Assembly (NCBI GenBank): GCA_017407705.1
Contig: JAFQWA010000029.1
Location: 1,628 to 65,627, forward strand
Length of the DNA stretch: 64,000 bases
DNA from: Clostridia bacterium
GTDB taxonomy: Bacteria > Bacillota > Clostridia > Oscillospirales > Acutalibacteraceae
Direction: 5' to 3'
The notes below the pieces were generated by a model. That model saw nothing but the letters and a program-made list of their open reading frames with translations, was not told the origin of the DNA and did no database searches. The translations under genes were made by a program, and so were the position numbers. Below are positions 32,044-49,032 of this stretch, piece after piece; the first letter of the stretch is position 1; each line of letters opens with the position of its first letter.

Positions 32044-33606
32044 TTATTTTGCTGTGATAATGTAGTCTTTCCAGGCGGATAAATATTCTTGCTCTAACTG
32101 TAAGCCATAGGTATCTATCGCCCACTGAGCGTCTTTTCCCTCTTTAACCACCTTATTTACTATATCCTCTGTTTTTATTTCAGCGTTTTGTCTTTCGGCA
32201 TAAGCAATCAAATTCACATAAGACTTATATTCATTATTGTTGAATTTAAGATTTGCCAAGCACTTCATTTCAAGTGAGTTAAGCCTTAAAATATTCCTAT
32301 ACTTTAATTGAATATCTCGATCTTTAAAGCGTGATGCCAGTCGGTAGATCTCGTTTCTTATAAACAATATCTTAGCGGCATCTGTTGCCTTTGGAGCAGG
32401 AATAAACTCAGCATATTTTATCTGCTTTTGAGTTACATATATCTGCCCTGCCTTGGGTGTGGGGAACGGTGCTACGCCTACTGTAAACTCATTGGTATCT
32501 TTGGGCGAACCAATCTGCGTAATACCCGATGCCAAAAACATTGCCAATTCGCCACTTGCAAACTTTTTAAGCAGTGTATCACGGGGCACATTCTCGTCTA
32601 ATATGTTTAAAACGGAATTTTTAGTCCAGACGGACAATGTGTTCAAAGCATTTCTTGCAGCAGTGGAGTCGATATTGGTTTTTACAGCTCCGGGGATCGC
32701 AGGAACCAAGGCTCCGCCACCGGAAATAACCATTGATGCGTAAAAATCATTGTAGTCTGTGTGGCAAGACAGACCGATCACATTGTTAGAGCTAAGCTTT
32801 TTAGCATAGCTTTCCATAACCTCCCAGGTCCACTGACGTTTCTCTGCAAGAGCGGCAGGATCTGCAAGTCCTGCTTTTTTTATCATATCCTTGTTGTATA
32901 AAATCACATAAGGCTCAAGGTCATCCTCTGCCCAAGCATACTGTCCGCCGTTAACGTTGAAAAACGTCCTTGCTTCCTGATTAAACCAAGTAAGTCTCAT
33001 ATCAACGCCCGACGTTGACATCGCCTTATTAAGATTGGTCATATAGTTTTGCCTTAAAAATCCGTAATAATTAACATCCTCGACCCTGTATATATCAGCA
33101 TCACACCTGCCGGATACTATAGCGGCTGCAACGGTTTCGGTGTAACCCTCATACATACCGCTTACAACTATATTAACGCCAAACTCTTTTTCTACCTCAA
33201 TTTCAACGTAAGCTGCAGCTTCGTAAAGTTCAGTTCCCGAAGCATAATTTCCCCAAGGGTTATGGATTTTAAGAGTATATCCCTTTAAGCCTTTGATAAA
33301 CGCCTGTGAGGGATTACCGTTTTGATCAGTGGTAAGCTTCGGTGCTGTGTGATAATGAGGATGTCCGCAAATCAGAATAAAATTACCATCATCAGATGAG
33401 GTAGTTGTTGCCACAGTGGTGGTAGAGGGAGTTGTTTGCTCGCTTGTTTGTGCAGTGGTATGATTTGTGGTGGTTGGTGTAGTGGTAGTTGTGGGTGTGG
33501 TTGTACCCTCTGCCTCATTGGTGTTTGTATCATTTATGCAGGAAGCGATTACAAAGGTAAAGCACAATGCCAAAGCAAACGCTACTATTCTTTTAGCTGT
33601 TGACAT
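32044..33606 (-). CDS. ABC transporter extracellular solute-binding lipoprotein (paralog 3, most diverged)
   Basis: Lipobox FVIASC and a Thr/Pro-rich linker. SBP family-1-like core (YNKDMIKKAGLADP ... WTW ... GELAMFL ... VAPFPTPKAG). Collinear with the two upstream paralogs. Confidence 0.85.
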   Translation of the reverse strand: MSTAKRIVAFALALCFTFVIASCINDTNTNEAEGTTTPTTTTTPTTTNHTTAQTSEQTTPSTTTVATTTSSDDGNFILICGHPHYHTAPKLTTDQNGNPSQAFIKGLKGYTLKIHNPWGNYASGTELYEAAAYVEIEVEKEFGVNIVVSGMYEGYTETVAAAIVSGRCDADIYRVEDVNYYGFLRQNYMTNLNKAMSTSGVDMRLTWFNQEARTFFNVNGGQYAWAEDDLEPYVILYNKDMIKKAGLADPAALAEKRQWTWEVMESYAKKLSSNNVIGLSCHTDYNDFYASMVISGGGALVPAIPGAVKTNIDSTAARNALNTLSVWTKNSVLNILDENVPRDTLLKKFASGELAMFLASGITQIGSPKDTNEFTVGVAPFPTPKAGQIYVTQKQIKYAEFIPAPKATDAAKILFIRNEIYRLASRFKDRDIQLKYRNILRLNSLEMKCLANLKFNNNEYKSYVNLIAYAERQNAEIKTEDIVNKVVKEGKDAQWAIDTYGLQLEQEYLSAWKDYIITAK

Positions 33607-33627
33607 AATAATTCCCCCTTTTATTTT

Positions 33628-33656
33628 AATATAACATACAAATACGTTATTTACAA
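33628..33656 (-). promoter_or_regulatory. Promoter of binding-protein paralog 3
   Basis: On the minus strand: TTGTAA (33656-33651), a 17-nt spacer, then an extended -10 TGtTATATT (hexamer at 33633-33628). Confidence 0.5.
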
Positions 33657-33775: not shown

Positions 33776-35356
33776 TTATTTGCCAGTAATTTTCAGGCCT
33801 TTCCAGGTTGATGCATATTCCTGATCAATTACACTTGAGTAAGTGTCAATAGCAGCCTGAGGTGTTCTTGTTCCGTTAACAACCTCGTAAACTGTCCAGT
33901 CAGTACTTGCAGTAGCACCTGATTTTTCAGTCAAGGAAGTAACGTTGATAGCAGACTTAAATCCTGCTCTATCGAAAGCAATATTAGAGAAGTTAGTAAG
34001 ATCTTTGCTTCCTACGGGGAACATATCCTGATTGTTTATCTGGAACTCTCTATCCCACAAACGATAGCTTACACGGTACATCTCGTTTCTGATAAAGAGG
34101 ATCTTTGCAGCTGATGTAGCCTTAGGAGCGGGGATAAAGTCGATCCACTGGAGTTTTCTCTGAGTAACATAATCCTGACCTGCTTTAGGTGTGGGGAACG
34201 GAACGACGCCCATCTTAAATGTGGATTTGTAATTTCTGTAAGACTTATCAACTGTTCCGCCGAGGATCATAGCAAGCTCGCCCTTAGCAAACTTATTAGG
34301 AGCTTCCTGCCACATTTCTTGACCCTTCATTATGTTGAAAACAGCGTCATTCTTTGTCCAAGTTGCAAGAGTCTGCAAGCAGTTCTTAACAACAGCGGAT
34401 TTGATGTTTGACTTAGGAACTCCGTTATCAACAACTACCAATGAGCTGCCGCTGGAGATAACCATTGAAGCCAAGAAGTCAGTAACGGTAGTACCGCAGG
34501 AAAGACCCATAACTGATGCAGTAGTAAGCTTTTCGGAATAGGTTTTTAATTTATCCCAAGTCCACTGCTTTTTAGCAACCAAGTCAGCGGGATCTGTAAG
34601 ACCTGCTTTCTTGATCATATCTTTATTATAGTACAGATAGAAGGTCTGAGCAGAGTTGCTGCCCAACCAAGCATACTGACCGTTGTTAACGTTAAAGAAT
34701 TTCCTTGCATCCTGACTGTACCAAGGCTCTTTCATATCAACGCCTGAAGTGGTCATAGCTTTTGTAAGGTTAGCCATATACTTTTTGCTCAAATATGTAG
34801 CATAGTTAAAGTCCTGAACCTTGTAGATATCAGCATCAGGACGGCCTGATGTAATATTAGCAAATACTGTTTCAGCATAGCCTTCCCAGTTACCTGTCTG
34901 ATAGATCTCTACGCCAAACTCTTTTTCTACCTCAGTCTCAACGAAGGCTGCATCCTGATAAAGAGTAGTACCTGCAGCAGCGCCGGTCCAAGGATCAAAG
35001 ATCTTAAGAGTGTAGCCCTTAAGGCTCTTGATAAATGCAGCGCTTGCGTTACCGTTTTTATCGGTAGTACGTTTGATCTCATTACCGATGGTGCTGTATC
35101 CTTCAATATCTGTAACGGTTGCCACTGTAGGCATTTTTGTTGTAACAACAGTTCCCTTTGTTGTAGTCGCACCTGTTGCAACGGTTTCGTCACCGCCTGC
35201 AACTGTAGTTTCAACGTTTGCATCGCCCTGAGCTGCTGTTGTTGTAGCTGCTGTTGTTGCATCGCCACCAGTTGCGGGGTTTTTTGAGCAAGATGCAATC
35301 ACAAGAACAAAGCAAAGTGCCAGAACAAGTGCTAATGCTCTTTTCAGATAAGACAT
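33776..35356 (-). CDS. ABC transporter extracellular solute-binding lipoprotein (paralog 2)
   Basis: MSYLKRALALVLALCFVLVIASC lipobox. ATG 35356 has GGAGG upstream; the track start is 35398. Very similar to the 35534..37117 product over the full length. Confidence 0.88.
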   Translation of the reverse strand: MSYLKRALALVLALCFVLVIASCSKNPATGGDATTAATTTAAQGDANVETTVAGGDETVATGATTTKGTVVTTKMPTVATVTDIEGYSTIGNEIKRTTDKNGNASAAFIKSLKGYTLKIFDPWTGAAAGTTLYQDAAFVETEVEKEFGVEIYQTGNWEGYAETVFANITSGRPDADIYKVQDFNYATYLSKKYMANLTKAMTTSGVDMKEPWYSQDARKFFNVNNGQYAWLGSNSAQTFYLYYNKDMIKKAGLTDPADLVAKKQWTWDKLKTYSEKLTTASVMGLSCGTTVTDFLASMVISSGSSLVVVDNGVPKSNIKSAVVKNCLQTLATWTKNDAVFNIMKGQEMWQEAPNKFAKGELAMILGGTVDKSYRNYKSTFKMGVVPFPTPKAGQDYVTQRKLQWIDFIPAPKATSAAKILFIRNEMYRVSYRLWDREFQINNQDMFPVGSKDLTNFSNIAFDRAGFKSAINVTSLTEKSGATASTDWTVYEVVNGTRTPQAAIDTYSSVIDQEYASTWKGLKITGK

Positions 35357-35379
35357 AACTAATACCTCCAAAATCTGTT

Positions 35380-35398
35380 TTGTGTAAATCTTACACAA
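35380..35398. promoter_or_regulatory. Perfect 8-3-8 palindrome TTGTGTAA-atc-TTACACAA in the leader of paralog 2 (candidate operator)
   Basis: Read directly. It lies between the predicted -10 (35430-35435) and the RBS. Confidence 0.4.
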
Positions 35399-35429
35399 TA
35401 AAATAACAATGATCTGTTATTTTTATTTA

Positions 35430-35458
35430 ATTATACTATGGGACTTTATAAAATGCAA
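35430..35458 (-). promoter_or_regulatory. Promoter of binding-protein paralog 2
   Basis: On the minus strand: TTGCAT (35458-35453), a 17-nt spacer, then TATAAT (35435-35430). Confidence 0.6.
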
Positions 35459-35481: not shown

Positions 35482-35514
35482 AAAAAACCTGCCGAAAATC
35501 GGCAGGTTTTTTTT
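35482..35514 (-). terminator. Rho-independent (bidirectional) terminator after binding-protein paralog 1
   Basis: ACCTGCCGA / TCGGCAGGT stem flanked by A- and T-tracts. Confidence 0.85.
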
Positions 35515-35533: not shown

Positions 35534-37117
35534 TTATTTACCTGTGATTGTAAGACCCTTCCAAACTGACTCATACTCAGCCTCGATCATTGAGCCATAA
35601 GCGTCGATAGCAGCCTGAGGAGTTCTTGTTCCGGCAACAACCTCGCTTACAGTCCAGCTTGTACTTGCTGTAGCGTCAGATTTCTCTGTCAATGAAACGA
35701 AGTTTGTTGCAGTCTTGAAGTAAGACTTTCTGTTGTAAGTAATATCAGCAAGATCTGTCATCTCTTTACCGTTGAGCTTGAACATATCCTTGTTTCTGAT
35801 CTGGAAGTCTCTATCCCAGAAACGATAGCTTACACGATACATCTCGTTTCTGATGAAGAGGATCTTTGCAGCAGAAGTAGCTTTAGGAGCGGGGATGAAG
35901 TCCATATACTGAACTTTAGTCTGGCTAACGTAATCCTGACCTGCTTTAGGTGTGGGGAACGGAACAACGCCAACTGTGAAAGTAGCTTTCTGAGCTTTAT
36001 AAGCCTTAGCATTGTCACCGCCGAGGATCATAGCGAGCTCGCCTTTAGCAAACTTCTTGGGAGCTTCCTGCCACATTTCCTGACCCTTCATCATGTTAAC
36101 AACAGCGTCATTCTTTGTCCAAGTTGCAAGAGTCTGCAAGCAGTTCTTAACAACAGCGGATTTGATGTTTGACTTGGGTTTGCCGTTAACGATGCTTACC
36201 AATGAACCGCCACTGGAAATAACCATTGAAGCGAGGAAGTCAGCTGCAGTAGTACCGCATGAAAGACCGATAACAGAAGAACTGTTAAGTTTCTCAGCGT
36301 ATTTCTTCATCTGATCCCAAGTCCACTGTTTCTTAGCAACTAAGTCAGCGGGATCTGTAAGACCTGCTTTTTTGATCATATCCTTATTGTACATAATAAG
36401 GTAGGGGCTGCCTTCAGAACCTGCCCAAGCATACTGACCATCGTTAATGTTGAAGAATTTTCTTGCATCCTGGTTGTACCAAGGCTCTTTCATGTCAACA
36501 CCGGCTGTTCTCATAGCCTTTGTCATGTTAGCCATGTACTTTTTGCTTACGTAAGTAGCATAGTTGAAATCCTGAACCTTGTAGATATCAGCATCAGGAC
36601 GACCTGATGTGATATTGGCAAATACTGTTTCAGCATAGCCTTCCCAGTTACCTGTTTCATGGATCTCTACGCCGAACTCTTTCTCTACTTCAGTCTCAAC
36701 GTAAGCTGCAGACTGATAGATGTCTGATCCAGGTTCAGCACCCGGCCAAGGGTTATAGATCTTAAGAGTATAACCTTTAAGGCTCTTAATGAATGAAGCG
36801 CTTGCGTTACCGTTTTTGTCAGTGGTACGTTTGATCTCAGCATTGATCTTACTCATTGACGGATTATCGGTAACTGTCTCAACAACGGGGGCTTTTGTTG
36901 TTGTGCCAACTGTTCCACCCTTTGTTGTTGTTGCGCCTGTTGCAACGGTTTCACCGTTTGCAAGTGTTGTTTCGACATTTGCGTCGCCCTGAGCTGCTGT
37001 TGTTGTAGTTGTTGTGCCGTCATTGTTTCCTGCAGGCTCTTTCGGACCGCAAGCAGCAATCACAAGAACAAAACACAGTGCGAGCACAAGTGCCAAAGCT
37101 CTTTTCAGATAAGACAT
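35534..37117 (-). CDS. ABC transporter extracellular solute-binding lipoprotein (paralog 1)
   Basis: MSYLKRALALVLALCFVLVIAAC lipobox. ATG 37117 has GGAGG upstream. SBP family-1-like core. No terminator separates it from the upstream permease gene. Confidence 0.88.
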   Translation of the reverse strand: MSYLKRALALVLALCFVLVIAACGPKEPAGNNDGTTTTTTAAQGDANVETTLANGETVATGATTTKGGTVGTTTKAPVVETVTDNPSMSKINAEIKRTTDKNGNASASFIKSLKGYTLKIYNPWPGAEPGSDIYQSAAYVETEVEKEFGVEIHETGNWEGYAETVFANITSGRPDADIYKVQDFNYATYVSKKYMANMTKAMRTAGVDMKEPWYNQDARKFFNINDGQYAWAGSEGSPYLIMYNKDMIKKAGLTDPADLVAKKQWTWDQMKKYAEKLNSSSVIGLSCGTTAADFLASMVISSGGSLVSIVNGKPKSNIKSAVVKNCLQTLATWTKNDAVVNMMKGQEMWQEAPKKFAKGELAMILGGDNAKAYKAQKATFTVGVVPFPTPKAGQDYVSQTKVQYMDFIPAPKATSAAKILFIRNEMYRVSYRFWDRDFQIRNKDMFKLNGKEMTDLADITYNRKSYFKTATNFVSLTEKSDATASTSWTVSEVVAGTRTPQAAIDAYGSMIEAEYESVWKGLTITGK

Positions 37118-37180
37118 AACTAATACCTCCAAATTTTATTTATGCTAAATTTTAAAGCATACAAAGTAATAAGATTTTGG

Positions 37181-38113
37181 TTATCCAACCAAGCCGCTTC
37201 GTGAAATACTCTCAACGAAGAATCTCTGAGTGAATACATACAGCACGATAAGAGGTGCTATGATCATCATAATAGCGGCATTTTTGATCAAAGAGATGTT
37301 CAGGTCAACTGAACTTGTAATTCCTGTACCAACAGTACTGTCCAAAGAACCGATCTTTGTGGATATCAGGTTTACCTCTCTCATAAAGACGGTGGTGTAG
37401 GATGAATCCAACCACTGCCAAACAAAGGAGAACAGGAAAACTGTAACCATCATAGAAACCGCACCCGGCAACATGATAGACACAAAGGTCTTTGCGGGGC
37501 CGGCGCCGTCAACGTAGGCAGCTTCTTCAAGCTCCTTAGGCATTCCTCTGAAGAACTGACGCATAAGGAATATGTAAAGGCTACACTTAAGACCCGTACA
37601 AGTTGCTGCGAAGCACAGCATAGACAAGGGACTGTCGTTGATCTGGTCAAGTGATCTGAACATACTGTATCTGTGGGTGAACAACAGATCCGGCGGGAGC
37701 AGCAATGCAAGAATAACAAGGAAGAATAATATCTTTCCGCCTTTGAATCTGAATCTTGCCAAGCCGTAGCCTACCAAGGTTGCTGTTGCAACCTGCAGAA
37801 TAGATGTTGAGAAGGTCAGCAGGAATGTGTTTGAGAATGTCTGGAATCCACCAAGCTTCATCCAAGCAGTTTGGTAGTTGCCGAAAATGATCTGCTTAGG
37901 AATGTATTTAACTGTTGCGTCGTACATATCGTCAGAGGTCATGAAAGACAGTGACAACTGTGAGAACAACGGGTACAGTATAACAAAGCACATACCTAAG
38001 ATAAACAACCAACGGACAGCGGATACAACATACTTAAAAACATACTTTTTGATCTTAACGTTTTTCGCTCTACGTTTTATCTCATCTACTTGAATTTGAG
38101 TTAATTCGCTCAT
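37181..38113 (-). CDS. Carbohydrate ABC transporter permease (MalG/LplC-like)
   Basis: Six TM segments and the EAA loop EEAAYVDGAGPAKTFVSIMLP. Confidence 0.9.
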   Translation of the reverse strand: MSELTQIQVDEIKRRAKNVKIKKYVFKYVVSAVRWLFILGMCFVILYPLFSQLSLSFMTSDDMYDATVKYIPKQIIFGNYQTAWMKLGGFQTFSNTFLLTFSTSILQVATATLVGYGLARFRFKGGKILFFLVILALLLPPDLLFTHRYSMFRSLDQINDSPLSMLCFAATCTGLKCSLYIFLMRQFFRGMPKELEEAAYVDGAGPAKTFVSIMLPGAVSMMVTVFLFSFVWQWLDSSYTTVFMREVNLISTKIGSLDSTVGTGITSSVDLNISLIKNAAIMMIIAPLIVLYVFTQRFFVESISRSGLVG

Positions 38114-38127
38114 TGTATCTGCCCTCC

Positions 38128-39084: not shown

Positions 39085-39087
39085 CGT

Positions 39088-41724: not shown

Positions 41725-41741
41725 ATTCAATTCTCCCCCTT

Positions 41742-43967
41742 TTAAGATCGTGTGGCGACTTCGTTAATAATATCCAGTACGAAGCTATACATCTGCTGTA
41801 ACAATGCGAAGAACAAAACAGCAAGGAACACTACTATAAGCATTACAACTACTGTTATAAGCATTTCTACGATTGTCATTCCCAGTGAGTAGTCGTGGAT
41901 CCGCATATTACCCGCCACGATCAGCATCAATACCCACAGCAATGCAATAGTTACGAAAACTGTATAGAAGTCACCTTCTTCTTTAACCATAACGTTGCTG
42001 AATATCAAGGCTATGGGATAAAGAATGATGATAGGTGTCAAAGCGTAAGATGTTGCGATGTAGATGGATTTGAAGTTACCTTCACCGTTAAGCAGTGAGG
42101 TTACGCACCAGTTACATACACAGAACAACAGTGCAGGTCCGATAATCTTGAGCAACTCAAGGAATACGTTGGTTTTATCTGCCTCAGGTGAGAAGATAAA
42201 GCCTGTAAATCTTGTTTGCAGCAAGCTTACAACTGCAGCTGCCAACAAAATGGTTGTGGCGGTTGCCACGCTGCTGTGATTTTCACGGGTAAGTGCCCAA
42301 TATCCGTTAAGGGGTCGGAATATAACCTTCTTAGCATATCCCAACTTGCCCAGATATGAGTCAGACTTGATAGGAGGCAGATACTTTTTACCAAGCTTGC
42401 TGCCAACTATTATAAGAACGATCAAAATAGCTGCAACGATAATAGCTATATCAAAGTACTTACTGATGATATCTCTACGATCATACTTATAAGCCTTTGA
42501 GAAGTTAAGAGTATCTTTAGTTTCTTTAAAGTACTTCATAGCAGTCTTGTAGTCGCCGTTACGGTAAGCAACCTTACCAAGACTCTGCTTTGCTGCAGCA
42601 CTGTTGCTGTTGAATTTCAGTACCTCTTTCCAAACCTCATTCTCTTCATCGTACTTATTCTCGTGATGCAGCTTGGTAGCTTTCATAATAAGCTCGCCGT
42701 AATCAGTCAGCTTAAATACGTTGATAGTTTTAAGGTCGCTGTCCAAAACCAAGCACTGACCGTCTAACCACTCGATAGATCTGGGCATTTTTAAAGTACC
42801 TGAAATATAGCTGATGTGGTTGGGGTCACTGTTGTCGGGAGGACAACCAAACTGGAACAGGTTGATACCTTCTGAGTTGTAAAAGAATACTTTGTTACGG
42901 TTACCGTCAAGTATTGCATACATTTCGTTATCCATAGCGATAACATCGTAAAGCAGTGACGGACCTTTGTATGCACCAACCAGAACGTTGATAACGTCAC
43001 CGTAGGGCTTAGCACCGTCGGTAACTCTCTTAAGAACGTCCTTACCTTTAGCACTGAGCTTTCTCAAAGCGTCGGTAGAGGTCATAGCATACTCACTGTC
43101 GGGCAGTGAAGTAACATACAAGAAATCGTCATTATCAATGTCGATATTGTTGTACTCGGTAGGAACGAAGTTCTGCATTCCCTTTCTTTGCTCTTCGGTT
43201 GAGAACATACGCCAGATCAACTCAACGATGTTGGGAGTAACCTTGGGAGCGCCCAAGCACTGCATAAACTCGCCTTTTTTATTAAGCTCGATAACACCCA
43301 TATTGAAGCCTTTGGAAAGAATAAAGATTCTTCCTGCGCCGTCAACGGTTATCTTGGTAGGTACGAAGTAGAAGTCTTCCGGCAAAACGGGAGATTCGAT
43401 CTGACAAATGGTACGTACAAACTTACCGGTTTTATCAAACTGAACCACACGGCCTGCGATATTGTCAGACTCATCAAGATCGTGAGCTGCAAGGTATTCC
43501 AGAACTGAAGCATCACAGTTAGTGGCGGTAAGACCGTAGGTATCGCAAACGTAGAGGTTGCCCTCTCTATCTACGAATGTACCTTCGGGCTTGAAGAATG
43601 TATCTTCGATCTCGGTTTTATTTCCGTCTTTATCAACGATAACGTTAGTGAATTTATCAATAACTCTATTAAATGTAAAGTCGGAGTTTAAAACAACGAT
43701 TCTGTGGTTATATGTGTCGGATACATAAATAAGGTTATCAGGACTTAAATATATATCCTGAGGATCGTAAAGTCTGCCAACGGGGTTGCCCTCGGCATCC
43801 AGAACCTCCTCTAAGTCTATGCTTTTATCAAAGATCATAGCATCGGGAGCGGGATAATCGTTTCCGTTGCTGTCGTAAACATAAGACTGATAGGGTGAAG
43901 CCGCGCTTACAGCTGTTTGAAATATAAACAAAACGGCTATTAAACAAACAATTATTTTACGTTTCAA
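41742..43967 (-). CDS. Signal peptide, NHL-repeat-like beta-propeller, TPR-like helix pair, TM segment and a C-terminal Yip1-family multi-pass membrane domain
   Basis: Signal peptide ...QTAVSA/AS. NHL-like blades (LIYVSDTYNHRIVVLN, NLYVCDTYG, RIFILSKGFN, MYAILDGNRNKVFFYN). TPR-like GKVAYRNGDYKTAMKYFKE. C-terminal five hydrophobic segments with a Yip1-like layout. TTG start with AAGGGAGGGAG upstream. Confidence 0.65.
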   Translation of the reverse strand: MKRKIIVCLIAVLFIFQTAVSAASPYQSYVYDSNGNDYPAPDAMIFDKSIDLEEVLDAEGNPVGRLYDPQDIYLSPDNLIYVSDTYNHRIVVLNSDFTFNRVIDKFTNVIVDKDGNKTEIEDTFFKPEGTFVDREGNLYVCDTYGLTATNCDASVLEYLAAHDLDESDNIAGRVVQFDKTGKFVRTICQIESPVLPEDFYFVPTKITVDGAGRIFILSKGFNMGVIELNKKGEFMQCLGAPKVTPNIVELIWRMFSTEEQRKGMQNFVPTEYNNIDIDNDDFLYVTSLPDSEYAMTSTDALRKLSAKGKDVLKRVTDGAKPYGDVINVLVGAYKGPSLLYDVIAMDNEMYAILDGNRNKVFFYNSEGINLFQFGCPPDNSDPNHISYISGTLKMPRSIEWLDGQCLVLDSDLKTINVFKLTDYGELIMKATKLHHENKYDEENEVWKEVLKFNSNSAAAKQSLGKVAYRNGDYKTAMKYFKETKDTLNFSKAYKYDRRDIISKYFDIAIIVAAILIVLIIVGSKLGKKYLPPIKSDSYLGKLGYAKKVIFRPLNGYWALTRENHSSVATATTILLAAAVVSLLQTRFTGFIFSPEADKTNVFLELLKIIGPALLFCVCNWCVTSLLNGEGNFKSIYIATSYALTPIIILYPIALIFSNVMVKEEGDFYTVFVTIALLWVLMLIVAGNMRIHDYSLGMTIVEMLITVVVMLIVVFLAVLFFALLQQMYSFVLDIINEVATRS

Positions 43968-43984
43968 ATGGCTCCCTCCCTTTC

Positions 43985-44887
43985 TTAATCCTTAAGTCCT
44001 GACGATGCCATGGTGTCAAGAATCTGAGTTTGTGAGAAAATGAAAACTGATAACGGCGGAATGAGCATAATCAAACCAACCGCAGCACCTGCACCTGCAC
44101 GAGCAAGACCACCTGTAACGATCTGACCAAGTGCGTAGGTCAAGGGCTTTTTAGCCTCAGTGAAGATAACTGTGCTACCTGATGCACCCCACATACTCTG
44201 AACTGAGAACAGTATCATGGTCATCCAAGCGGGTTTTACCAGCGGCATTACGATACCGGTGAAAATCCTGAGCTCTGAAGCGCCGTCAATACGGGCAGCT
44301 TCCAGCAGCGCATTAGGAATAGATGATGTCATAAACTGCTTCATAAGGTAAAGACCCATTGAACCGCCTATGTAAGGAATGATCAAAGCATAATATGTAT
44401 CAACCATACCTAACTTGGACATAATAATGTAGTTGGGAATACCTGTAACAGCAGGGGTAAACATAAGTGAAAGAACGATTACTTTAAACATAACCTTTCT
44501 TCCGGGGAATTCACGTTTTTCAAGAACGTAAGCCGCCAGTGATGCAAAGATGATGTGGAAGAAGGTTGCAACAACTGTCATAAACACAGTATTGAATATG
44601 TATCTTGAGAAAGGCACCCATGACTGGCTCATCAAAACGCCGATGTTCTGGAAGTTTTCCAGAGTTGGGTTTCTAACGAAGAAACGAGGCGGGAAGATGA
44701 ACAACTCATCCAAGGGTTTAAATGCGTTACATACTGTATAAACCAGCGGCAACACCATAAAAACGCCAACTGCACAAAGGAACAGGAAGTTTGTAATATT
44801 ACCTGCTCTGGAACGTGCGGGACCGGGATTAAATTTTTTCTTGGAAACCTTAAGTTTGCTAACGTCAACTTGTCTTGTTGCTTCCAT
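43985..44887 (-). CDS. Carbohydrate ABC transporter permease (MalG-like)
   Basis: EAA loop LEAARIDGASELRIFTGIVMP. ATG 44887 (AGGTGG 9 nt upstream) lies 1 nt after the upstream stop; the track start is 44929. Confidence 0.9.
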   Translation of the reverse strand: MEATRQVDVSKLKVSKKKFNPGPARSRAGNITNFLFLCAVGVFMVLPLVYTVCNAFKPLDELFIFPPRFFVRNPTLENFQNIGVLMSQSWVPFSRYIFNTVFMTVVATFFHIIFASLAAYVLEKREFPGRKVMFKVIVLSLMFTPAVTGIPNYIIMSKLGMVDTYYALIIPYIGGSMGLYLMKQFMTSSIPNALLEAARIDGASELRIFTGIVMPLVKPAWMTMILFSVQSMWGASGSTVIFTEAKKPLTYALGQIVTGGLARAGAGAAVGLIMLIPPLSVFIFSQTQILDTMASSGLKD

Positions 44888-44888
44888 A

Positions 44889-45824
44889 TTACTGTCCCAC
44901 CTTTCCGAGTATTCTCTGGATGATCTCATTTACGCCAACCATTGTTACGAACAGCAAGGTAGCGATAGCACAAGCATAACCCATTTCAAAACGTGTTGTA
45001 CCGTAGTCACCCAAGTGGTTAAGAATAGTATGGGCAGCATAGTCGGTGCTGGGGAATCCGAAAAGTGTGGTTGTAACGTCACCTACGGTAAATGCAGATG
45101 TAATACTCATAACCGCACTAAACATCATCTGGGGTCTCATAGAAGGCAGTGTGATGAACCACAGCTCCTGCCAACGGTTTCTGATACCCTCAACGTAGCC
45201 TGCTTCATACTGTGAACGGTCAATAGTTCTGAAACCTGCAACGTTAGAAAGGAATCCGGCACCAAGGCTCATCCATACCATAACGATTACGCATACCCAG
45301 ATCATCCAGTCGGTATTGGTTAAGAACTGTATAGGCTCTGTAAGAATACCAAGGTTGATAAGTGTACCGTTGATCCAACCGTAGGTATCACCGGAGAACA
45401 TAACCTTCCAGATCATATAAGCACCACCGGAAATAGACGGTGCATACATTATAGTAACCATAATAGCTCTGACGACAGGTGACAGCTCATTGATAAACCA
45501 AGCGAACATCAAAGCAGACAAGTAACCTACAGGTCCTGTGATGATAGCTATGATCAATGTGTTCTTAACAGCTGTTAAGAATATATCGTCGTTAGCGATA
45601 AGGTTTTTGTAGTTCTCAAGACCGATAAATTTCGGTAACTCGAGAACGTTAAAATATGTAAAGCTAAGAGCGATGGAAATAAGAACCGGCAACACGGTGA
45701 AGGTAAAGAATATCAATCCGTACGGTGCTATATAGAAATAGCAATCCCAGTTCTGTTTGAGCATCTTGAATCTTAACTTTTTATCTTGCAGCTTAATAGC
45801 TTTAGATTCAGCAGTAGCTTTCAT
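44889..45824 (-). CDS. Sugar ABC transporter permease (MalF-like)
   Basis: EAA loop YEAGYVEGIRNRWQELWFITLP. RBS GGAGG. Confidence 0.9.
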   Translation of the reverse strand: MKATAESKAIKLQDKKLRFKMLKQNWDCYFYIAPYGLIFFTFTVLPVLISIALSFTYFNVLELPKFIGLENYKNLIANDDIFLTAVKNTLIIAIITGPVGYLSALMFAWFINELSPVVRAIMVTIMYAPSISGGAYMIWKVMFSGDTYGWINGTLINLGILTEPIQFLTNTDWMIWVCVIVMVWMSLGAGFLSNVAGFRTIDRSQYEAGYVEGIRNRWQELWFITLPSMRPQMMFSAVMSITSAFTVGDVTTTLFGFPSTDYAAHTILNHLGDYGTTRFEMGYACAIATLLFVTMVGVNEIIQRILGKVGQ

Positions 45825-45838
45825 TATAACCTCCGTTC

Positions 45839-45854
45839 TGTGTTTTAAAACACA
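45839..45854. other. 16-nt perfect palindrome TGTGTTTTAAAACACA between the large binding-protein gene and the first permease gene
   Basis: Read directly. It could form a short intercistronic hairpin. Confidence 0.3.
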
Positions 45855-45872
45855 TATCCGTCAAAATAATCT

Positions 45873-48812
45873 TTACTCTTCTCTCAGCGGAAGGCCGAAT
45901 TCCTTACGCTTATTAGTGATCTCTGAATTGATGGTATTTGAGTAATCCAACAATGTATCTTTGGGGTCTTCAGCCTTATAAACAACTCGTCTGAAAGCGT
46001 TGTTGATATGACGTTGTAAGAAGTAGCCACCGGGAACCTCGGGGATAGAGTAAGATGTTTCGAGCTGTGCCTTCAAAGTAGCGATTTCATCTGCTGACCA
46101 GGGCAAACGCTCAAATGCTTCTGTATTTGCAGTTCCGTAACGTGCGGAGGGTCCGAGGATACACTCAAGCTCACTACCATACTGTGACTGTGTATCGGCT
46201 CTGGTCCACCACTCTAAGAACTTCCAAGACTGCTCAAGTTTCTTAGTGCTTGAAAGGATCAAAGCGCAGCTTGTAACCAATGTGTTAGAGCGGTCAATAG
46301 TTCCATCTTTCTGCACGGTTCCGGGGATAACTGTGAAATCCCACAGACCACGAATTTCAGGAGCTGCAACTGACAGTGCGTTATACATACCGTAGTTTCC
46401 GATACCGAGAGGCATCTCACCGGTTCTGAAACGGTTCTGGAAGTCATAATCAAGGAGCAAACCGTAGTTTACATAGAAGTTAGTCCAAGCCTTGAATGCA
46501 GTGGTTGCTGCGTCGGTATGAAGAGCTGTTGAGAAAGTATCCTCTTCATACATATTACCGCCGTTCTGACGAAGGAATGAGTAGAATGTCATAACACCTG
46601 CGCCAACGTCGTTTGTGGTAGGTACGGGCATACCGAATTCAAGGTTATTCTTATTAAGAATAGTAATGGCTGTAATGATCTCTTCCCAAGTCTGGGGAAC
46701 TTTTTCGATACCCACCTCAGAAAGAACGTCTTTACGGTAGAACATTACGTTAAAGGACTGGGTTTCGGGAAGAGCGTAAACACCTGTGTGTTTACCGTCA
46801 TTAAAGTAGTAAGGAATCATTGCTTCATTGGAGAAGCGCTTTGCAACAGTTGAGAATTTCTGACTGTCGTCCCACTTGTCCTCAAACTGAGTCAAGTCCA
46901 CAACAGCATTTCTCATAGCAAAGTTAACGGCCTCGTTCTGTCCCTGACCTAACGCTACGTCAGGACCGATACCTGCAACAATCGCTGACAGCAACGCACC
47001 CATATTAACAAGCTCAAGGTTGATTTCCTGACCTGTGGTCTTGGTGAGTGAGTCGTTGATCATAGCACGCAGTGTCTGGAACTGGTCACGACCGGTAGAA
47101 ATCCAAACTGTGATGGTTTCTTCTTTATTAGTATTTTTTGTAAGGTTACCGATAGAGTTATAGTCGATAACAAAGGATGCGATAAACTGGTTTACCTGAT
47201 ATGCCAAATCTACAAAGAAATTAGCGGTAGGCTTCTTTATCTGGCCGTCAGGCTTTGAGAATGATATGTAGTCCAGCTCAAGGGGCACGTTACCTGCTGT
47301 ATTAAGCCAGGTTCCCAATGAACCGATGTTGGTTTTGAAGTAAGAGAGGTTCTTTGCAATGTCCTGAGGCTTCTCATACATTTTCTTCAGCTGACGTGAC
47401 ATTGTTTCCAATGTTGCCAAGTCCGAACCCTTTTTCTTGGTGTATGAAAGGATACCTGCAACGATGTCGTCCAGTCTTTTTGCCTGAACGTCAAACTGCT
47501 CGATAACATCAGGCATAAGTTGTTCCAATTTATAGTCACGGTATTTATCAGGCTCGGAACCGGTAACGATAAGTATCTTTCTGTACATCTCGTTAAGGGT
47601 GGTAAGGCAATCCTCAGCATCACGGAGGAAGGGGCCCATCTGACCCTGAGTGGTTTCCATTGTAATGGTGTTTTCACCGGCTTTAAGATAAATCAGGCAA
47701 TCCTTACCGTCAGCGGTGGTGGGATTTACGATAACCCAGTTGTTATCAAACTTAAAGGGAACAGCCTCTGCCTCTGCAAAGGGGATCTCACCGTTGATGT
47801 AAAGCTTTCTGGAGGAGATCATACCCTGATACAGGTTCTTACGGGCTTTAAAGTTGATCTTATAAAGACCTGCCTTCTCTACCTTTGCAGTCCAGGTGAT
47901 AGACTGCTGAGCATACTGCCATCTTGTACCGCCGATCTCGTTGATAAGCATTTTGTAAGCTTTATAAGGAACGGTAGCAGGAGTGGAAAGGTCAGCCATA
48001 GGATAAAGAGTCTGGTCGGATTTTACAGAAGGTCTTTCGGCCTGAATGAAGATTTCTTCACCGTCGTAGATAGGATAGTTGTTAGCTTTATACTCAGCCT
48101 CAACCTCAGCATAAGTAGGTATTGTAGTAGCGGGTACCAACTTAATGGACTTAATGGTCATAGGCTCTTTTACAGAGTGAAGCTTAATGGTATTCTGACC
48201 CTCTTTGAAGTAGAACTCCAAAGGAGTAGAAACGTAACCTAAATAATCATAGAAATAGGAGGATGTCCATGTATGAAGCTCCTGCTGAGTAGGACGGATA
48301 TCGTTTCCGTATGCGTCCTTAGCAAACTCTTCGTCTGAACCGATAACGTCAATCCATACACGGTTGAAGGTAAAGTTGTTTGCTGTTTTGAAGGGAACCT
48401 CACCGTTGATCTCTATTTTTCTTTCAATAGAGATATTTTTACCTTTCTCGTTATAGTACTCCAGGAAAAGGTTATACTTTCCTTCTTTAGCGTCAAAGGT
48501 AAATTCAACAGCGTCGGTATTGCTTGTATAGATAGCAGTACCGGTAGCTCCTTCATAATTTTCTCTGAGCTCAACACCCTCGGTTTTGGAAGTGATCTTG
48601 GAAGCATCGATCAAAACCTCGGTTGTTCCACGGGGAATATCCTTATATTTATCAAGGTAATCCTGATAACTGATATCCTCCTGGTAATCGCCGACATAGA
48701 TAGCTGTGTCTGAATTACCGGTGTCAGCAGCGGGGGTTTCTGCGGATGCTACTACTACCAGCATAGACATTAACATCAAGACGGTCAATAATGCTGATAT
48801 AATTCTCTTCAT
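45873..48812 (-). CDS. Very large (979 aa) extracellular solute-binding protein with two N-terminal CBM-like modules
   Basis: Signal peptide MKRIISALLTVLMLMSMLVVVASA without a lipobox Cys. Two related modules (GKYNLFLEYYNEKGKNISIERKIEINGEVPFKTANNFTFNRVW and GLYKINFKARKNLYQGMISSRKLYINGEIPFAEAEAVPFKFDNNW). The C-terminal roughly 430 aa are SBP family-1-like (ITVWISTGRDQ ... FYRKDVLSEVGIEKVPQTWEE). Confidence 0.8.
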   Translation of the reverse strand: MKRIISALLTVLMLMSMLVVVASAETPAADTGNSDTAIYVGDYQEDISYQDYLDKYKDIPRGTTEVLIDASKITSKTEGVELRENYEGATGTAIYTSNTDAVEFTFDAKEGKYNLFLEYYNEKGKNISIERKIEINGEVPFKTANNFTFNRVWIDVIGSDEEFAKDAYGNDIRPTQQELHTWTSSYFYDYLGYVSTPLEFYFKEGQNTIKLHSVKEPMTIKSIKLVPATTIPTYAEVEAEYKANNYPIYDGEEIFIQAERPSVKSDQTLYPMADLSTPATVPYKAYKMLINEIGGTRWQYAQQSITWTAKVEKAGLYKINFKARKNLYQGMISSRKLYINGEIPFAEAEAVPFKFDNNWVIVNPTTADGKDCLIYLKAGENTITMETTQGQMGPFLRDAEDCLTTLNEMYRKILIVTGSEPDKYRDYKLEQLMPDVIEQFDVQAKRLDDIVAGILSYTKKKGSDLATLETMSRQLKKMYEKPQDIAKNLSYFKTNIGSLGTWLNTAGNVPLELDYISFSKPDGQIKKPTANFFVDLAYQVNQFIASFVIDYNSIGNLTKNTNKEETITVWISTGRDQFQTLRAMINDSLTKTTGQEINLELVNMGALLSAIVAGIGPDVALGQGQNEAVNFAMRNAVVDLTQFEDKWDDSQKFSTVAKRFSNEAMIPYYFNDGKHTGVYALPETQSFNVMFYRKDVLSEVGIEKVPQTWEEIITAITILNKNNLEFGMPVPTTNDVGAGVMTFYSFLRQNGGNMYEEDTFSTALHTDAATTAFKAWTNFYVNYGLLLDYDFQNRFRTGEMPLGIGNYGMYNALSVAAPEIRGLWDFTVIPGTVQKDGTIDRSNTLVTSCALILSSTKKLEQSWKFLEWWTRADTQSQYGSELECILGPSARYGTANTEAFERLPWSADEIATLKAQLETSYSIPEVPGGYFLQRHINNAFRRVVYKAEDPKDTLLDYSNTINSEITNKRKEFGLPLREE

Positions 48813-49003
48813 TGCCTCATTCTCCTACCGTTAAAAATTTAAACAATTCTTATACAAAAATTTTCACGTTAAAGTTTACTTTAAAATAAAAATTTTTATG
48901 TACAAGGCGTGGTTTTTTATGCCACTCTCACATAAACTTGTACAGTTTTTTGTGAACAATGCACAAAATTATCGGATAATACTCCTATTGTGCACCTCAT
49001 ATT

Positions 49004-49032
49004 AGCATAGATAATATCGTTTTTCTTGTCAA
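49004..49032 (-). promoter_or_regulatory. Candidate promoter of the 17-kb transport locus
   Basis: On the minus strand: TTGACA (49032-49027), a 17-nt spacer, then TATGCT (49009-49004). This implies a leader of roughly 185 nt. Confidence 0.35.

What the first reader, a model, noticed from the sequence alone, without database searches (positions are those of the whole stretch)
32044..49032. 17-kb one-strand locus with two permease pairs, four binding proteins, a DUF5696-like lipoprotein and an NHL/Yip1 membrane protein, but no ATPase, glycosidase or regulator
Thirteen consecutive minus-strand genes have tiny or overlapping junctions (1-17 nt between most genes from 45824 down to 37181).

Gene order, in transcription direction:
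- candidate promoter and long leader
- 979-aa binding protein with CBM-like modules
- MalF-like permease
- MalG-like permease
- NHL-propeller/TPR/Yip1 membrane protein
- 878-aa DUF5696-like lipoprotein
- second MalF-like / MalG-like permease pair
- three paralogous lipoprotein binding proteins

A canonical CUT1 importer operon has one binding protein and one permease pair. Here two translocators are interleaved with two large proteins of unknown function, both predicted to be extracytoplasmic. Missing an ATPase is normal for CUT1 systems, which share MsmK/MsmX-type ATPases. The absence of any recognisable GH/PL/CE family inside a 17-kb glycan-type locus is not normal. It makes the DUF5696-like and propeller proteins the candidate catalytic or capture components.

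To my recollection, the core set (large binding protein, two permeases, Yip1-family protein, DUF5696 protein) recurs in other Firmicutes without any experimental characterisation. That recollection needs a database check.
Basis: partly seen in the sequence, partly recalled or inferred. Interest (0 to 1): 0.78.

Follow-up and report, generated by a model that had tools for sequence, protein, structure and literature searches.

The report
Conserved twin-transporter sugar-uptake gene cassette
This is a real, widely conserved and apparently unstudied gene cassette of gut and soil Firmicutes: two sugar importers always sit with a giant binding protein, a propeller/Yip1 membrane protein and a glycosidase-shaped lipoprotein (DUF5696), which suggests a new way for Gram-positive bacteria to capture and import complex carbohydrates.

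Summary
There are 10 co-directional minus-strand genes, not 13, and six junctions are 1-17 nt. Pfam confirms four solute-binding proteins (SBPs), four permeases, one NHL/TPR/Yip1 protein and one DUF5696 lipoprotein. There is no ATPase or regulator inside the locus.

A strong terminator follows the first small SBP, so the likely operon is 8 genes (48812..35534). The last two SBP genes are lineage-specific add-ons.

The order big SBP, permease pair A, NHL/TPR-Yip1, DUF5696, permease pair B holds in 66 of 67 related loci (48 complete, 18 cut by contig ends, 1 rearranged). It persists down to about 23% DUF5696 identity. It occurs in cultured Anaerocolumna and Aristaeella, and in several copies per genome.

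Flanking genes vary (GH16, GH43, GH51, GH98, GH94/GH144-like, GH3, GH78, GH2, AraC/LacI regulators, once an MsmX-type ATPase).

"No glycosidase" needs correcting. DUF5696 is a remote homologue of GH129/GH101 (hhalign 99.2%; Foldseek E 3.5e-27). However, the canonical GH129 nucleophile and acid/base positions are not conserved.

My best reading is a modular dual-importer glycan-uptake machine with obligate extracytoplasmic accessory subunits. No paper in the searched library mentions DUF5696. Verdict: new variant of a known kind, high interest.

The parts
49004..49032 (-). Promoter-like site (TTGACA, 17 nt, TATGCT)
   Evidence: Consensus scan, 10 of 12 matches. It lies just downstream of the terminator of the preceding gene (49268-49234). 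This is a consensus match only.
48813..49003 (-). Leader of about 190 nt
   Evidence: Predicted RNA fold -46.5 kcal/mol, z = -4.3 against shuffles. No Rfam family matches. Function unknown.
45873..48812 (-). Giant binding protein (979 aa): signal or anchor peptide without a lipobox, two beta-sandwich modules, a helical stalk and a CUT1 SBP domain
   Evidence: SBP_bac_1 matches aa 576-875. AF2 model pLDDT 86.7, with beta modules at about 60-230 and 250-390, helices 390-506 and the SBP fold at 510-979. Nearest solved relative of the SBP domain is Lin1841, the sophoro-oligosaccharide SBP (profile E 3.3e-29; Foldseek). The N-terminal 516 aa have no PDB sequence hit. CBM_35 similarity is weak. 113 of 120 homologues lack a lipobox.
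44889..45824 (-). Permease A1 (MalF/UgpA-like)
   Evidence: BPD_transp_1 E 7.9e-11; NCBIfam sub-threshold similarity to GlcT and UgpA.
43985..44887 (-). Permease A2 (MalG/UgpE-like), probable 300-aa product
   Evidence: BPD_transp_1. The metagenome-assembled genome's (MAG's) gene call gives 300 aa, 1 nt after A1. The longest ORF starts at 44929.
41742..43967 (-). Membrane protein (741 aa): signal peptide, NHL beta-propeller, TPR, one TM helix plus the hydrophobic Yip1 domain
   Evidence: Pfam NHL 41.5 bits and Yip1 39.2 bits. PDB hits to NHL propellers (PknD, TRIM71) and to consensus TPR at 434-484. Hydropathy peaks at 507-525 and, within the Yip1 domain, nine overlapping windows above threshold between 565 and 720, which I merge into five segments. 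The NHL/TPR part and the Yip1 part are separate adjacent genes in 14 of 67 loci.
39088..41730 (-). DUF5696 lipoprotein (878-880 aa), GH129/GH101-fold
   Evidence: Pfam DUF5696 E 4.5e-146. Lipobox LTSC. AF2 pLDDT 89.4. Foldseek finds ZgGH129 (E 3.5e-27, TM 0.68-0.70) and NagBb (E 6e-23, TM 0.71). hhalign against a NagBb-like sequence gives 99.2% probability. The canonical nucleophile position holds R670.
38128..39084 (-). Permease B1
   Evidence: BPD_transp_1 E 2.3e-7. About 23% identical to A1. Starts 3 nt after the DUF5696 stop codon.
37181..38113 (-). Permease B2
   Evidence: BPD_transp_1 E 7.7e-12. About 23% identical to A2.
35534..37132 (-). Small lipoprotein SBP no. 1 (527-532 aa), last gene of the probable operon
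   Evidence: SBP_bac_1. Lipobox followed by a Thr-rich linker. A homologue is adjacent to the cassette in about 60% of complete loci.
35482..35512 (-). Intrinsic-terminator-like hairpin with a T-run
   Evidence: 14 pairs with 6 G-C pairs on the minus strand, and 16 pairs with 6 G-C pairs at 35480-35514 on the plus strand. It starts 22 nt after the SBP532 stop codon.
33776..35398 (-). Small lipoprotein SBP no. 2, a recent duplicate of no. 1
   Evidence: 75% identical to SBP532, with the same signal peptide. It lies behind the terminator and is not part of the conserved cassette.
32044..33606 (-). Small lipoprotein SBP no. 3
   Evidence: 47-49% identical to the other two small SBPs. It has its own promoter-like site at 33656-33628, and a terminator-like site follows at 31951-31930.

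Best explanation
Genes 48812..35534 form an 8-gene operon. It encodes a self-contained, modular glycan capture-and-import apparatus that is conserved across Bacillota.

**Proposed components**
- Two different CUT1-type ABC translocators, permease pairs A and B, only about 23% identical to each other.
- The 979-aa binding protein. It probably stays membrane-tethered by its N-terminal hydrophobic segment. It has two beta-sandwich modules, a helical stalk and an oligosaccharide-type SBP domain. It is proposed to capture glycan and feed translocator A.
- The ordinary lipoprotein SBPs. These are proposed to feed translocator B.
- The NHL-propeller/TPR/Yip1 membrane protein. It is proposed to act as an assembly scaffold, by analogy with the Yip1-family protein YknW, which organises the YknXYZ ABC transporter.
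- The lipid-anchored DUF5696 protein. It has a glycosidase fold (GH129/GH101 superfamily) and is an obligate extracytoplasmic subunit. It either trims the captured glycan or holds it at the membrane surface.
- Energy is proposed to come from a shared MsmX/MsmK-type ATPase encoded elsewhere.

Substrate specificity is set by the binding proteins and by whichever glycoside hydrolases flank the cassette in a given genome.

**Shown**
- Gene content and the tight gene junctions.
- Conservation of the cassette and its multiple copies per genome.
- The fold homology of DUF5696.
- Extracytoplasmic targeting signals.
- Variable GH neighbours.

**Inferred**
- Physical assembly of the components.
- Which SBP serves which translocator.
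- The scaffold role of the Yip1 protein.
- Whether DUF5696 is catalytic. I put this at about 50%: either a new GH family with relocated catalytic residues, or a pseudo-glycosidase.
For: - **Domain content:** Pfam and NCBIfam domain calls.
- **Gene junctions:** 1-17 nt junctions.
- **Operon end:** a terminator after SBP532.
- **Synteny:** of 67 related loci, 48 are complete and canonical, 18 are cut by contig ends but collinear, and 1 is rearranged.
  - The order holds even for the most distant DUF5696 homologues at 23-26% identity.
  - It holds in cultured Anaerocolumna cellulosilytica and Aristaeella hokkaidonensis.
- **NHL/TPR and Yip1 link:** these two parts are either fused or encoded by adjacent genes, 14 of 67 split. 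This ties the two modules together functionally.
- **Copy number:** 2-3 copies in single MAGs (URYX01, CAUGOD01, CATWUX01, CABQAA01, CAKTXU01).
- **Flanks:** not conserved overall, 153 clusters from 274 ORFs. They often encode glycan enzymes or regulators:
  - GH16, GH98, GH78-like, GH2, BNR/CBM9 and AraC;
  - GH94, two GH144-like genes and an MsmX-type ATPase;
  - GH3 plus a glucosamine-6-P isomerase;
  - GH43;
  - GH16, GH43 and LacI;
  - GH43 and GH51.
- **DUF5696 fold:** PDB profile hits to GH129, Foldseek and hhalign at 99.2%.
- **SBP979:** its SBP domain is closest to an oligosaccharide SBP.
- **YknW precedent:** PMC4887032.
- **Family size:** 4,110 clusters at 50% identity with E <= 1e-30.
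Against: - There is no expression, interaction or transport data of any kind.
- No ATPase is encoded in the window.
- About 40% of complete loci lack a second SBP, so the partner of translocator B is unclear.
- The GH129 nucleophile position (C-terminal end of beta-4) holds R/G/S/A across the family.
- The position aligned to the GH129 acid/base residue is variable.
- A family-conserved Asp (D679, 150 of 169 sequences) is Asn in the window protein and its whole clade.
- The catalytic half of the barrel cannot be aligned reliably, so catalysis can be neither affirmed nor excluded.
- The N-terminal modules of SBP979 are only weakly CBM-like.
- The window locus has no flanking GH that would hint at a substrate.
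Confidence: 0.6

Rival explanations
1. DUF5696 is simply an active surface glycoside hydrolase of a new GH family, distantly related to GH129/GH101. It cleaves the target glycan into oligosaccharides, and two ordinary CUT1 importers take these up. The locus is then a conventional Gram-positive polysaccharide utilisation locus (PUL) whose enzyme had not been recognised. The Yip1 protein is peripheral.
For: - Fold and profile homology to GH129 enzymes.
- Near-invariant polar and acidic residues: D310, D338, D740, N762, E776, H835 and N856. Several sit at the C-terminal ends of barrel strands.
- There is precedent for relocated catalytic residues in this superfamily. In ZgGH129/DagB only the NagBb nucleophile is conserved, and an Asp from the N-terminal domain is essential (PMC5698469).
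- The protein is a lipoprotein, so it sits outside the cytoplasmic membrane.
Against: - The one residue shared by NagBb and DagB, the beta-4 nucleophile, aligns to non-acidic residues in DUF5696.
- D679 is Asn in this clade.
- The gene never leaves the cassette in 67 loci, although the flanking GHs imply very different substrates, many of them beta-linked: GH16, GH43, GH94/GH144-like and GH3. The GH129/101/36/31/13 superfamily acts on alpha-linkages. A substrate-specific enzyme would be expected to shuffle between loci.
Confidence: 0.3
2. The arrangement is a fortuitous juxtaposition of two unrelated CUT1 transporter operons and two unrelated genes, with no functional unity.
For: - The permease pairs are only about 23% identical.
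- A canonical CUT1 system needs only one pair.
- At least one internal terminator exists in the 17-kb locus.
Against: - 66 of 67 loci keep the same seven genes in the same order and on the same strand, across several orders of Bacillota and down to 23% identity. The flanks meanwhile are unconserved.
- Junctions are 1-17 nt.
- The terminator lies outside the 7-gene core.
Confidence: 0.03
3. The cassette is not mainly a nutrient importer. It is instead a sensing or cell-envelope device. One version: DUF5696 and the propeller act on the cell's own wall polymers, and the importers recycle the fragments. Another version: the system reports extracellular glycans to regulators.
For: - The conserved residue set of DUF5696 does not change with the flanking GH context. 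This would fit a constant ligand, either a self polymer or a partner protein, rather than the variable nutrient.
- NHL propellers serve as extracellular sensor domains, for example in PknD.
- Some close relatives of the window locus are flanked by wall-related genes: a glycerophosphotransferase and a DegT-type aminotransferase.
Against: - More distant cassettes are frequently flanked, co-directionally, by catabolic GHs and sugar regulators.
- BPD_transp_1 permeases with SBPs are importers.
- No kinase or sigma/anti-sigma gene is part of the cassette.
Confidence: 0.07

Closest known systems
CUT1 (carbohydrate uptake transporter 1) ABC importers, e.g. MalEFGK2 and the Listeria Lin1841 sophoro-oligosaccharide system
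   Same: - SBP_bac_1 binding proteins together with MalF/MalG-type BPD_transp_1 permease pairs.
- The SBP domain of the 979-aa protein is closest to Lin1841.
- The ATPase is encoded elsewhere, as is common for MsmX/MsmK-sharing systems in Firmicutes (my own knowledge). One related locus carries such an ATPase.
   Different: - Two non-identical permease pairs sit in one invariant cassette.
- The primary SBP carries an N-terminal extension of about 560 aa, with no PDB sequence relative, and no lipid anchor.
- There are two obligate extra components: NHL/TPR/Yip1 and DUF5696.
GH129 (NagBb alpha-N-acetylgalactosaminidase; ZgGH129/DagB 3,6-anhydro-D-galactosidase) and GH101 endo-alpha-GalNAc-ases
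   Same: - The same three-part fold: N-terminal beta-sandwich, (beta/alpha)8 barrel and C-terminal beta-sandwich. Foldseek E 3.5e-27 and TM about 0.7 over the targets.
- Collinear profile homology.
- Shared motifs: PxFG in the N-domain, YxxMAxxYR, and LTTF...GW in beta-1/beta-2.
   Different: - No hit to Pfam Glyco_hydro_129 or Glyco_hydro_101 at E <= 0.01.
- About 10-12% identity.
- About 160 extra residues in the N-domain.
- NagBb D435 aligns to R670 or N675, and E478 aligns to a variable column.
- The beta-4 to beta-8 half cannot be aligned by HMMER.
- DUF5696 is locked into a transporter cassette. GH129 genes are not.
YknWXYZ of Bacillus (Yip1-family YknW as an ABC-transporter assembly factor)
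   Same: A bacterial Yip1-domain membrane protein is encoded with an ABC transporter, and in the Ykn system it is required for assembly of that transporter (PMC4887032).
   Different: - YknYZ is a MacB-type exporter with a membrane-fusion protein, not a type-I importer.
- YknW is not described with a propeller or TPR ectodomain (my own knowledge, not checked).
- No sequence comparison was made beyond the shared Pfam family.
Gram-positive PULs and Bacteroidota SusC/D-based PULs (conceptual analogue)
   Same: A conserved uptake core is present in several paralogous copies per genome. It is surrounded by variable GHs and regulators.
   Different: - The core here is a 7-gene inner-membrane and lipoprotein cassette, not a TonB-dependent transporter pair.
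- The window copy has no recognised CAZyme or regulator within the locus.
Heavy chains of heteromeric amino-acid transporters (4F2hc/rBAT): glycosidase-fold ectodomains used as transporter ancillary subunits (analogy from my own knowledge)
   Same: A membrane-tethered ectodomain with an alpha-amylase-superfamily-type fold, obligately paired with a transporter. The canonical catalytic residues are not all retained.
   Different: - This is a eukaryotic system, and the transporter class and glycosidase family are unrelated.
- The association of DUF5696 with the permeases is inferred only from gene linkage.

Membership tests
Pfam DUF5696 (PF18952) | Full-length match to the family HMM above the gathering score | tested here: met
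   488.3 bits against a cut-off of 25.6, covering profile positions 2-612 of 612.
GH129 | Three-domain fold with a central (beta/alpha)8 barrel, as in NagBb and ZgGH129 | tested here: met
   The AF2 model (pLDDT 89.4) matches 5opq, 8rzk and 5wz* with Foldseek E 3.5e-27 to 1e-21 and target TM 0.68-0.71.
GH129 | Detectable sequence homology to GH129 members | tested here: met
   Profile against PDB: E 5.8e-7 (5opq) and 3.7e-6 (5wzq). hhalign against a NagBb-like sequence: 99.2% probability, E 7.5e-19. There is no hit to Pfam Glyco_hydro_129 at E <= 0.01.
GH129 | Catalytic nucleophile Asp at the end of beta-4 (NagBb D435 = ZgGH129 D486) | tested here: not met
   Two hhalign runs place D435 on N675 or on R670. 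Column 670 is R57/G33/S24/A14 and column 675 is D45/Q28/E25 among 169 family members. Alignment confidence there is low, and HMMER does not align this half at all. Strictly, the result is 'not met, with an uncertain alignment'.
GH129 | Acid/base Glu (NagBb E478) | tested here: not met
   E478 aligns to S724 of the window protein. The column is D64/S39/N14/T13, and an acidic residue is present in only about half of the members. This residue is also not conserved in ZgGH129 (PMC5698469).
GH129 | Glycosidase activity | not testable with these tools
   Needs recombinant protein and substrate panels.
CUT1 ABC importer | Cluster-type SBP (SBP_bac_1/SBP_bac_8) | tested here: met
   All four SBPs hit SBP_bac_1 above the cut-off. 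The SBP979 domain is closest to Lin1841.
CUT1 ABC importer | Two MalF/MalG-type permeases (BPD_transp_1) | tested here: met
   Four permeases score above the Pfam cut-off. NCBIfam shows sub-threshold similarity to UgpA/UgpE/MalF/MalG.
CUT1 ABC importer | MalK/MsmX-type ATPase | tested here: not met
   None in the locus or in the 64-kb window. An ATPase with ABC_tran, OB_MalK and TOBE_2 domains is present in related locus L063. Sharing of an ATPase encoded elsewhere cannot be tested here.
Yip1 family (PF04893) | Match to the Yip1 HMM over a multi-span hydrophobic domain | tested here: met
   39.2 bits against a cut-off of 28.6, aa 547-715. Nine overlapping hydropathy windows above threshold lie between 565 and 720; I merge them into five segments. 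One further TM helix lies at 507-525.
NHL-repeat beta-propeller | NHL repeats forming a propeller | tested here: inconclusive
   One repeat scores above the Pfam cut-off (41.5 bits). PDB hits to six-bladed NHL domains cover aa 56-226. No structure was predicted for this protein.
Gram-positive PUL (transporter + CAZyme + regulator in one locus) | At least one annotated CAZyme and a regulator in the locus | tested here: not met
   The window locus has neither by Pfam or NCBIfam. An AraC gene lies 2.6 kb away, beyond two divergent URO-D-like genes. Related loci do have both.

The most novel reading that the evidence does not exclude
The 7-gene cassette is the core of a previously unrecognised, generic glycan-import nanomachine of Bacillota. 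Functionally it would be a Gram-positive counterpart of SusC/D. Two ABC translocators would be physically organised by a propeller-TPR-Yip1 scaffold. DUF5696 would not be a nutrient-specific enzyme. It would be a glycosidase-fold ancillary subunit with a constant ligand, either a partner protein or the cell's own wall polymer. In that role it would be comparable to 4F2hc/rBAT in eukaryotic transporters, or it would open a path through the wall for large oligosaccharides.
Probability: 0.25. Interest if true: 0.88.

Novelty: new variant of a known kind. Interest (0 to 1): 0.72.

Why it matters
How Gram-positive gut and soil bacteria capture and import complex glycans is much less well understood than the Sus-like systems of Bacteroidota.

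This analysis found an invariant cassette with these properties:
- The DUF5696 family holds at least 4,110 clusters at 50% identity.
- It is present in Oscillospirales, Lachnospirales and Christensenellales, and cultured Paenibacillus and Cohnella carry full-length homologues of its giant binding protein (the neighbourhood there could not be checked).
- It occurs in several copies per genome.
- It is surrounded by different glycoside hydrolases in different genomes.

If it is one machine, three things follow:
1. It gives a new genomic marker for glycan-utilisation loci in Firmicutes.
2. It assigns a role to a large domain of unknown function.
3. It adds a second example of a Yip1 protein organising an ABC transporter.

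It also poses a clear biochemical question: is DUF5696 a new glycosidase family or a pseudo-enzyme? Cultured carriers (Anaerocolumna cellulosilytica, Aristaeella hokkaidonensis) make this directly testable.

Tried and rejected
1. **Search with a NagBb fragment.** I used a 68-aa NagBb fragment to fetch full-length GH129 sequences. It returned only short fragments. Those fragments carry precomputed hits to both Glyco_hydro_101 and DUF5696. I rebuilt a NagBb-like sequence from a twice-frameshifted gene in L061 instead. Its numbering was validated by W398, D435 and E478.
2. **Mapping the catalytic residues by sequence.** Two hhalign runs disagree (N675 against R670), and HMMER does not align the beta-4 to beta-8 half at all.
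3. **D724 or D679 as the catalytic residue.** D724 is acidic in only about half of the family. D679 swaps with Asn in several scattered lineages. That pattern fits a hydrogen-bonding role better than a nucleophile.
4. **Foldseek on the SBP979 model.** The C-terminal MalE-like domain dominated the results, so the N-terminal modules could not be classified. PDB sequence search of the N-terminal 516 aa found nothing. Pfam gave only weak CBM_35 and Golvesin_C hits.
5. **Leader RNA.** Rfam found nothing in the leader.
6. **Literature searches.** Searches for DUF5696, PF18952, and Yip1 combined with SBP/permease/GH or NHL terms found nothing relevant. The Sato et al. GH129 structure paper was not held.
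7. **Locus search with the wide alignment.** The first related-loci run, using the wide alignment, failed for lack of conserved stretches. The narrower alignment biased the 59 genome loci towards Oscillospirales. Eight further loci reached through distant proteins offset this bias.
8. **Paenibacillus rhizovicinus.** The neighbourhood could not be fetched.
9. **Rejected idea: the three small SBPs are part of the conserved unit.** They are not.


Full report
**1. The observation**

ORF listing shows ten consecutive minus-strand ORFs between 48812 and 32044. The finding says thirteen.

Pfam confirms the described content:
- A 979-aa protein whose only hit is SBP_bac_1, at aa 576-875.
- Two BPD_transp_1 permeases.
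- A 741-aa protein with NHL (41.5 bits) and Yip1 (39.2 bits).
- An 880-aa DUF5696 protein (E 4.5e-146, full profile length).
- Two more permeases.
- Three SBP_bac_1 proteins of 520-540 aa.

PDB sequence hits add a TPR stretch at aa 434-484 and NHL-propeller relatives such as PknD and TRIM71. NCBIfam gives only sub-threshold similarity to Ugp, Mal and Glc permeases.

Targeting signals:
- DUF5696 and the three small SBPs have lipoboxes.
- The small SBPs also carry Thr-rich linkers.
- The 979-aa SBP and the NHL/Yip1 protein have hydrophobic N-termini without a lipobox.

Hydropathy places one TM helix at 507-525. Within the Yip1 domain, nine overlapping windows above threshold lie between 565 and 720, and I merge them into five segments.

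Junctions between 45824 and 37181 are 1, 17, 11-17, 3 and 14 nt (and the MAG gene calls).

The exact contig is an ENA metagenome scaffold.

**2. Transcription units**

- A terminator for the upstream gene lies at 49268-49234.
- A TTGACA-17-TATGCT site follows at 49032-49004.
- The roughly 190-nt leader folds stably (z = -4.3). It matches no Rfam family.
- A strong hairpin with a T-run at 35512-35482 lies 22 nt after the first small SBP gene.
- The next two SBP genes follow gaps of 135-177 nt and 169 nt.
- The last SBP gene has its own promoter-like site.

The likely operon is therefore eight genes (48812..35534). SBP540 is a 75%-identical duplicate of SBP532 with the same signal peptide. SBP520 is 47-49% identical to the other two.

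**3. Conservation**

A pattern scan of 185,579 species genomes with a DUF5696 alignment returned 59 loci. Most come from Acutalibacteraceae, Oscillospiraceae and Ruminococcaceae MAGs. Eight more loci came from distant DUF5696 or big-SBP proteins.

I ran phmmer with the window proteins against all ORFs of these 67 loci. The order tested was big SBP, permA1, permA2, NHL/TPR-Yip1, DUF5696, permB1, permB2, all on one strand.

| Result | Loci |
|---|---|
| Complete and canonical | 48 |
| Collinear but cut by a contig end | 18 |
| Rearranged (L059) | 1 |

- The order holds at 23-26% DUF5696 identity.
- In 14 loci the NHL/TPR part and the Yip1 part are separate adjacent genes.
- Flanking genes are not conserved (153 clusters from 274 flanking ORFs).
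- About 60% of fully covered loci (20 of 34) have one ordinary-sized SBP directly next to the cassette, either after permB2 or before the big SBP.
- Several MAGs carry two or three cassettes.
- Cultured carriers include Anaerocolumna cellulosilytica and Aristaeella hokkaidonensis.
- Full-length big-SBP homologues at about 40% identity exist in Paenibacillus, Cohnella, Anaerotaenia and Mobilitalea.
- A full HMM scan of 1.84 billion representative proteins found 7,101 DUF5696 clusters at E <= 1e-3 and 4,110 at E <= 1e-30.

**4. What flanks the cassette elsewhere**

| Locus or loci | Flanking genes |
|---|---|
| Various genome loci | GH16, GH98, GH78-like, GH2, BNR/CBM9, divergent AraC |
| L063 | GH94, two 'Glycoamylase' (GH144-like) genes, a MalK/MsmX-type ATPase |
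| L065 | GH3, glucosamine-6-P isomerase, acetyltransferase |
| L066 | Two GH43 genes, AraC |
| L069 | GH16, LacI, GH43 |
| L070 | GH43, GH51 |

The cassette therefore looks like a substrate-agnostic uptake core embedded in diverse glycan loci.

The window copy and its closest relatives have no GH next to them. The window does come from a fibrolytic organism: it also encodes GH9, GH38, an apiosidase-like protein, a dockerin protein, an RsgI-like protein, CE7 and CE4.

**5. DUF5696**

*Homology to GH129/GH101*
- A profile of 42 homologues hits the GH129 structures 5opq and 8rz* (E about 6e-7) and NagBb (E about 4e-6).
- The AF2 model has pLDDT 89.4 and pTM 0.85.
- Foldseek ranks ZgGH129 first (E 3.5e-27, target TM 0.68-0.70), then NagBb (E 6e-23, TM 0.71), then GH101, then GH36, GH13 and GH31.
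- I rebuilt a NagBb-like sequence from a frameshifted gene. Its numbering reproduces W398, D435 and E478, which are named in PMC8106489 and PMC5698469.
- hhalign of the family against that sequence gives 99.2% probability over the full length.

*Catalytic positions*
- D435 falls on N675 or R670 in the two hhalign runs. Neither column is acidic across the family.
- E478 falls on a column that is acidic in only about half of 169 members.
- HMMER aligns only the N-domain motif, the beta-1 to beta-3 region (48.8 bits) and the C-terminal sandwich.

*The family's own near-invariant set*
- P309-D310-G311-S312-G313, Y335, D338, Y474/A478, T525, R689, N716, D740, P744-F745, N762, E776, H835 and N856-Y857.
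- D679 is Asp in 150 of 169 members. It is Asn in the window protein and its clade.

*Interpretation*
- ZgGH129 itself keeps only the nucleophile of NagBb and uses other acids, including one from the N-domain. Relocated catalysis is therefore possible in this superfamily.
- Even so, the one shared residue is missing here.
- DUF5696 belongs to the GH129/GH101 superfamily by fold. It fails the GH129 catalytic-residue test. Its catalytic competence remains open.

**6. The 979-aa binding protein**

- The AF2 model (pLDDT 86.7) shows two beta-sandwich modules, a helical segment of about 115 aa and a MalE-like domain.
- The SBP domain is closest to the sophoro-oligosaccharide binder Lin1841.
- The N-terminal 516 aa have no PDB sequence relative.
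- CBM_35 similarity is weak.
- 113 of 120 homologues lack a lipobox, and many look like signal-anchored proteins.

**7. Mechanism**

The best-supported reading is a dual-translocator glycan capture-and-import module with two obligate extracytoplasmic accessory proteins, energised by a shared ATPase.

- The scaffold role of the Yip1 protein is an analogy to YknW.
- The pairing of SBP979 with translocator A, and of the small SBPs with translocator B, is inferred from gene order.
- DUF5696 occupies the 'SBP position' directly in front of permease pair B, with a 3-nt gap. About 40% of cassettes have no second SBP. It may therefore itself serve translocator B. This is speculation.

**8. Novelty**

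No paper in the searched library mentions DUF5696 or PF18952. None describes a Yip1/NHL protein in a sugar ABC locus.

The parts are of known kinds. The invariant architecture, its spread and the pseudo-enzyme question are new. I rate it a new variant of a known kind with high interest.

Noticed in passing
window 17548-17767 (+) and 61713-62047 (+): A T-box leader lies upstream of pheS/pheT (17815-21240). A bacterial class A RNase P RNA is also present. Both score above the Rfam gathering thresholds.
   Followed up: no
window 12717-13742, 29570-30697, 30713-31693 (+); 2091-3779 (-): Three URO-D-family paralogues are present. Two of them sit between the locus and an AraC regulator at 28621-29448. 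A B12-binding radical-SAM/DUF4080 protein is also encoded. Together these may form a corrinoid-dependent methyltransferase or demethylation system. They are not linked to the cassette in other genomes.
   Followed up: partly
window 52268-53368, 55039-56787, 10653-12599, 14346-17432, 3782-5095, 58297-59292, 54169-54981: The window encodes an RsgI-like anti-sigma protein, a dockerin-bearing protein, GH9, GH38, an apiosidase-like (GH140-type) protein, a CE7 acetyl-xylan esterase and a CE4 deacetylase. The host looks like a cellulosome-type plant-fibre degrader.
   Followed up: no
window 33776-37132 (-): SBP532 and SBP540 are 75% identical tandem duplicates with an identical signal peptide and lipobox. 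A strong terminator separates them, which suggests a recent lineage-specific expansion of binding proteins.
   Followed up: partly
window 48813-49003 (-): The leader of the operon folds much more stably than shuffled controls (z = -4.3). It includes an inverted repeat, GTGCACAA...TTGTGCA, right after the -10 box. No Rfam family matches. It could be an operator or a regulatory RNA.
   Followed up: partly
L063 1-18622: A distant cassette sits between a GH94 phosphorylase, two GH144-like genes and an MsmX-type ATPase. This suggests a beta-1,2-glucan locus. It fits with the big-SBP family being closest to the sophoro-oligosaccharide binder Lin1841.
   Followed up: partly
L061 3075-4970: A NagBb-like GH129 gene in a metagenome contig is broken by two frameshifts. 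This is either a pseudogene or an assembly error. Short NagBb-like fragments in the protein database carry precomputed hits to both Glyco_hydro_101 and DUF5696.
   Followed up: partly
L029, L030, L053 (URYX01); L026, L027 (CAUGOD01); L028, L056 (CATWUX01); L022, L050 (CABQAA01); L059, L060 (CAKTXU01): Single MAGs carry two or three divergent copies of the whole cassette. This resembles the way paralogous PULs are distributed within a genome.
   Followed up: partly
window 39088-48812 compared with L002-L021: The closest DUF5696 homologue among GTDB species representatives is only about 52% identical. The closest big-SBP homologue in the protein database is only about 56-58% identical. The host lineage therefore seems poorly represented.
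   Followed up: no
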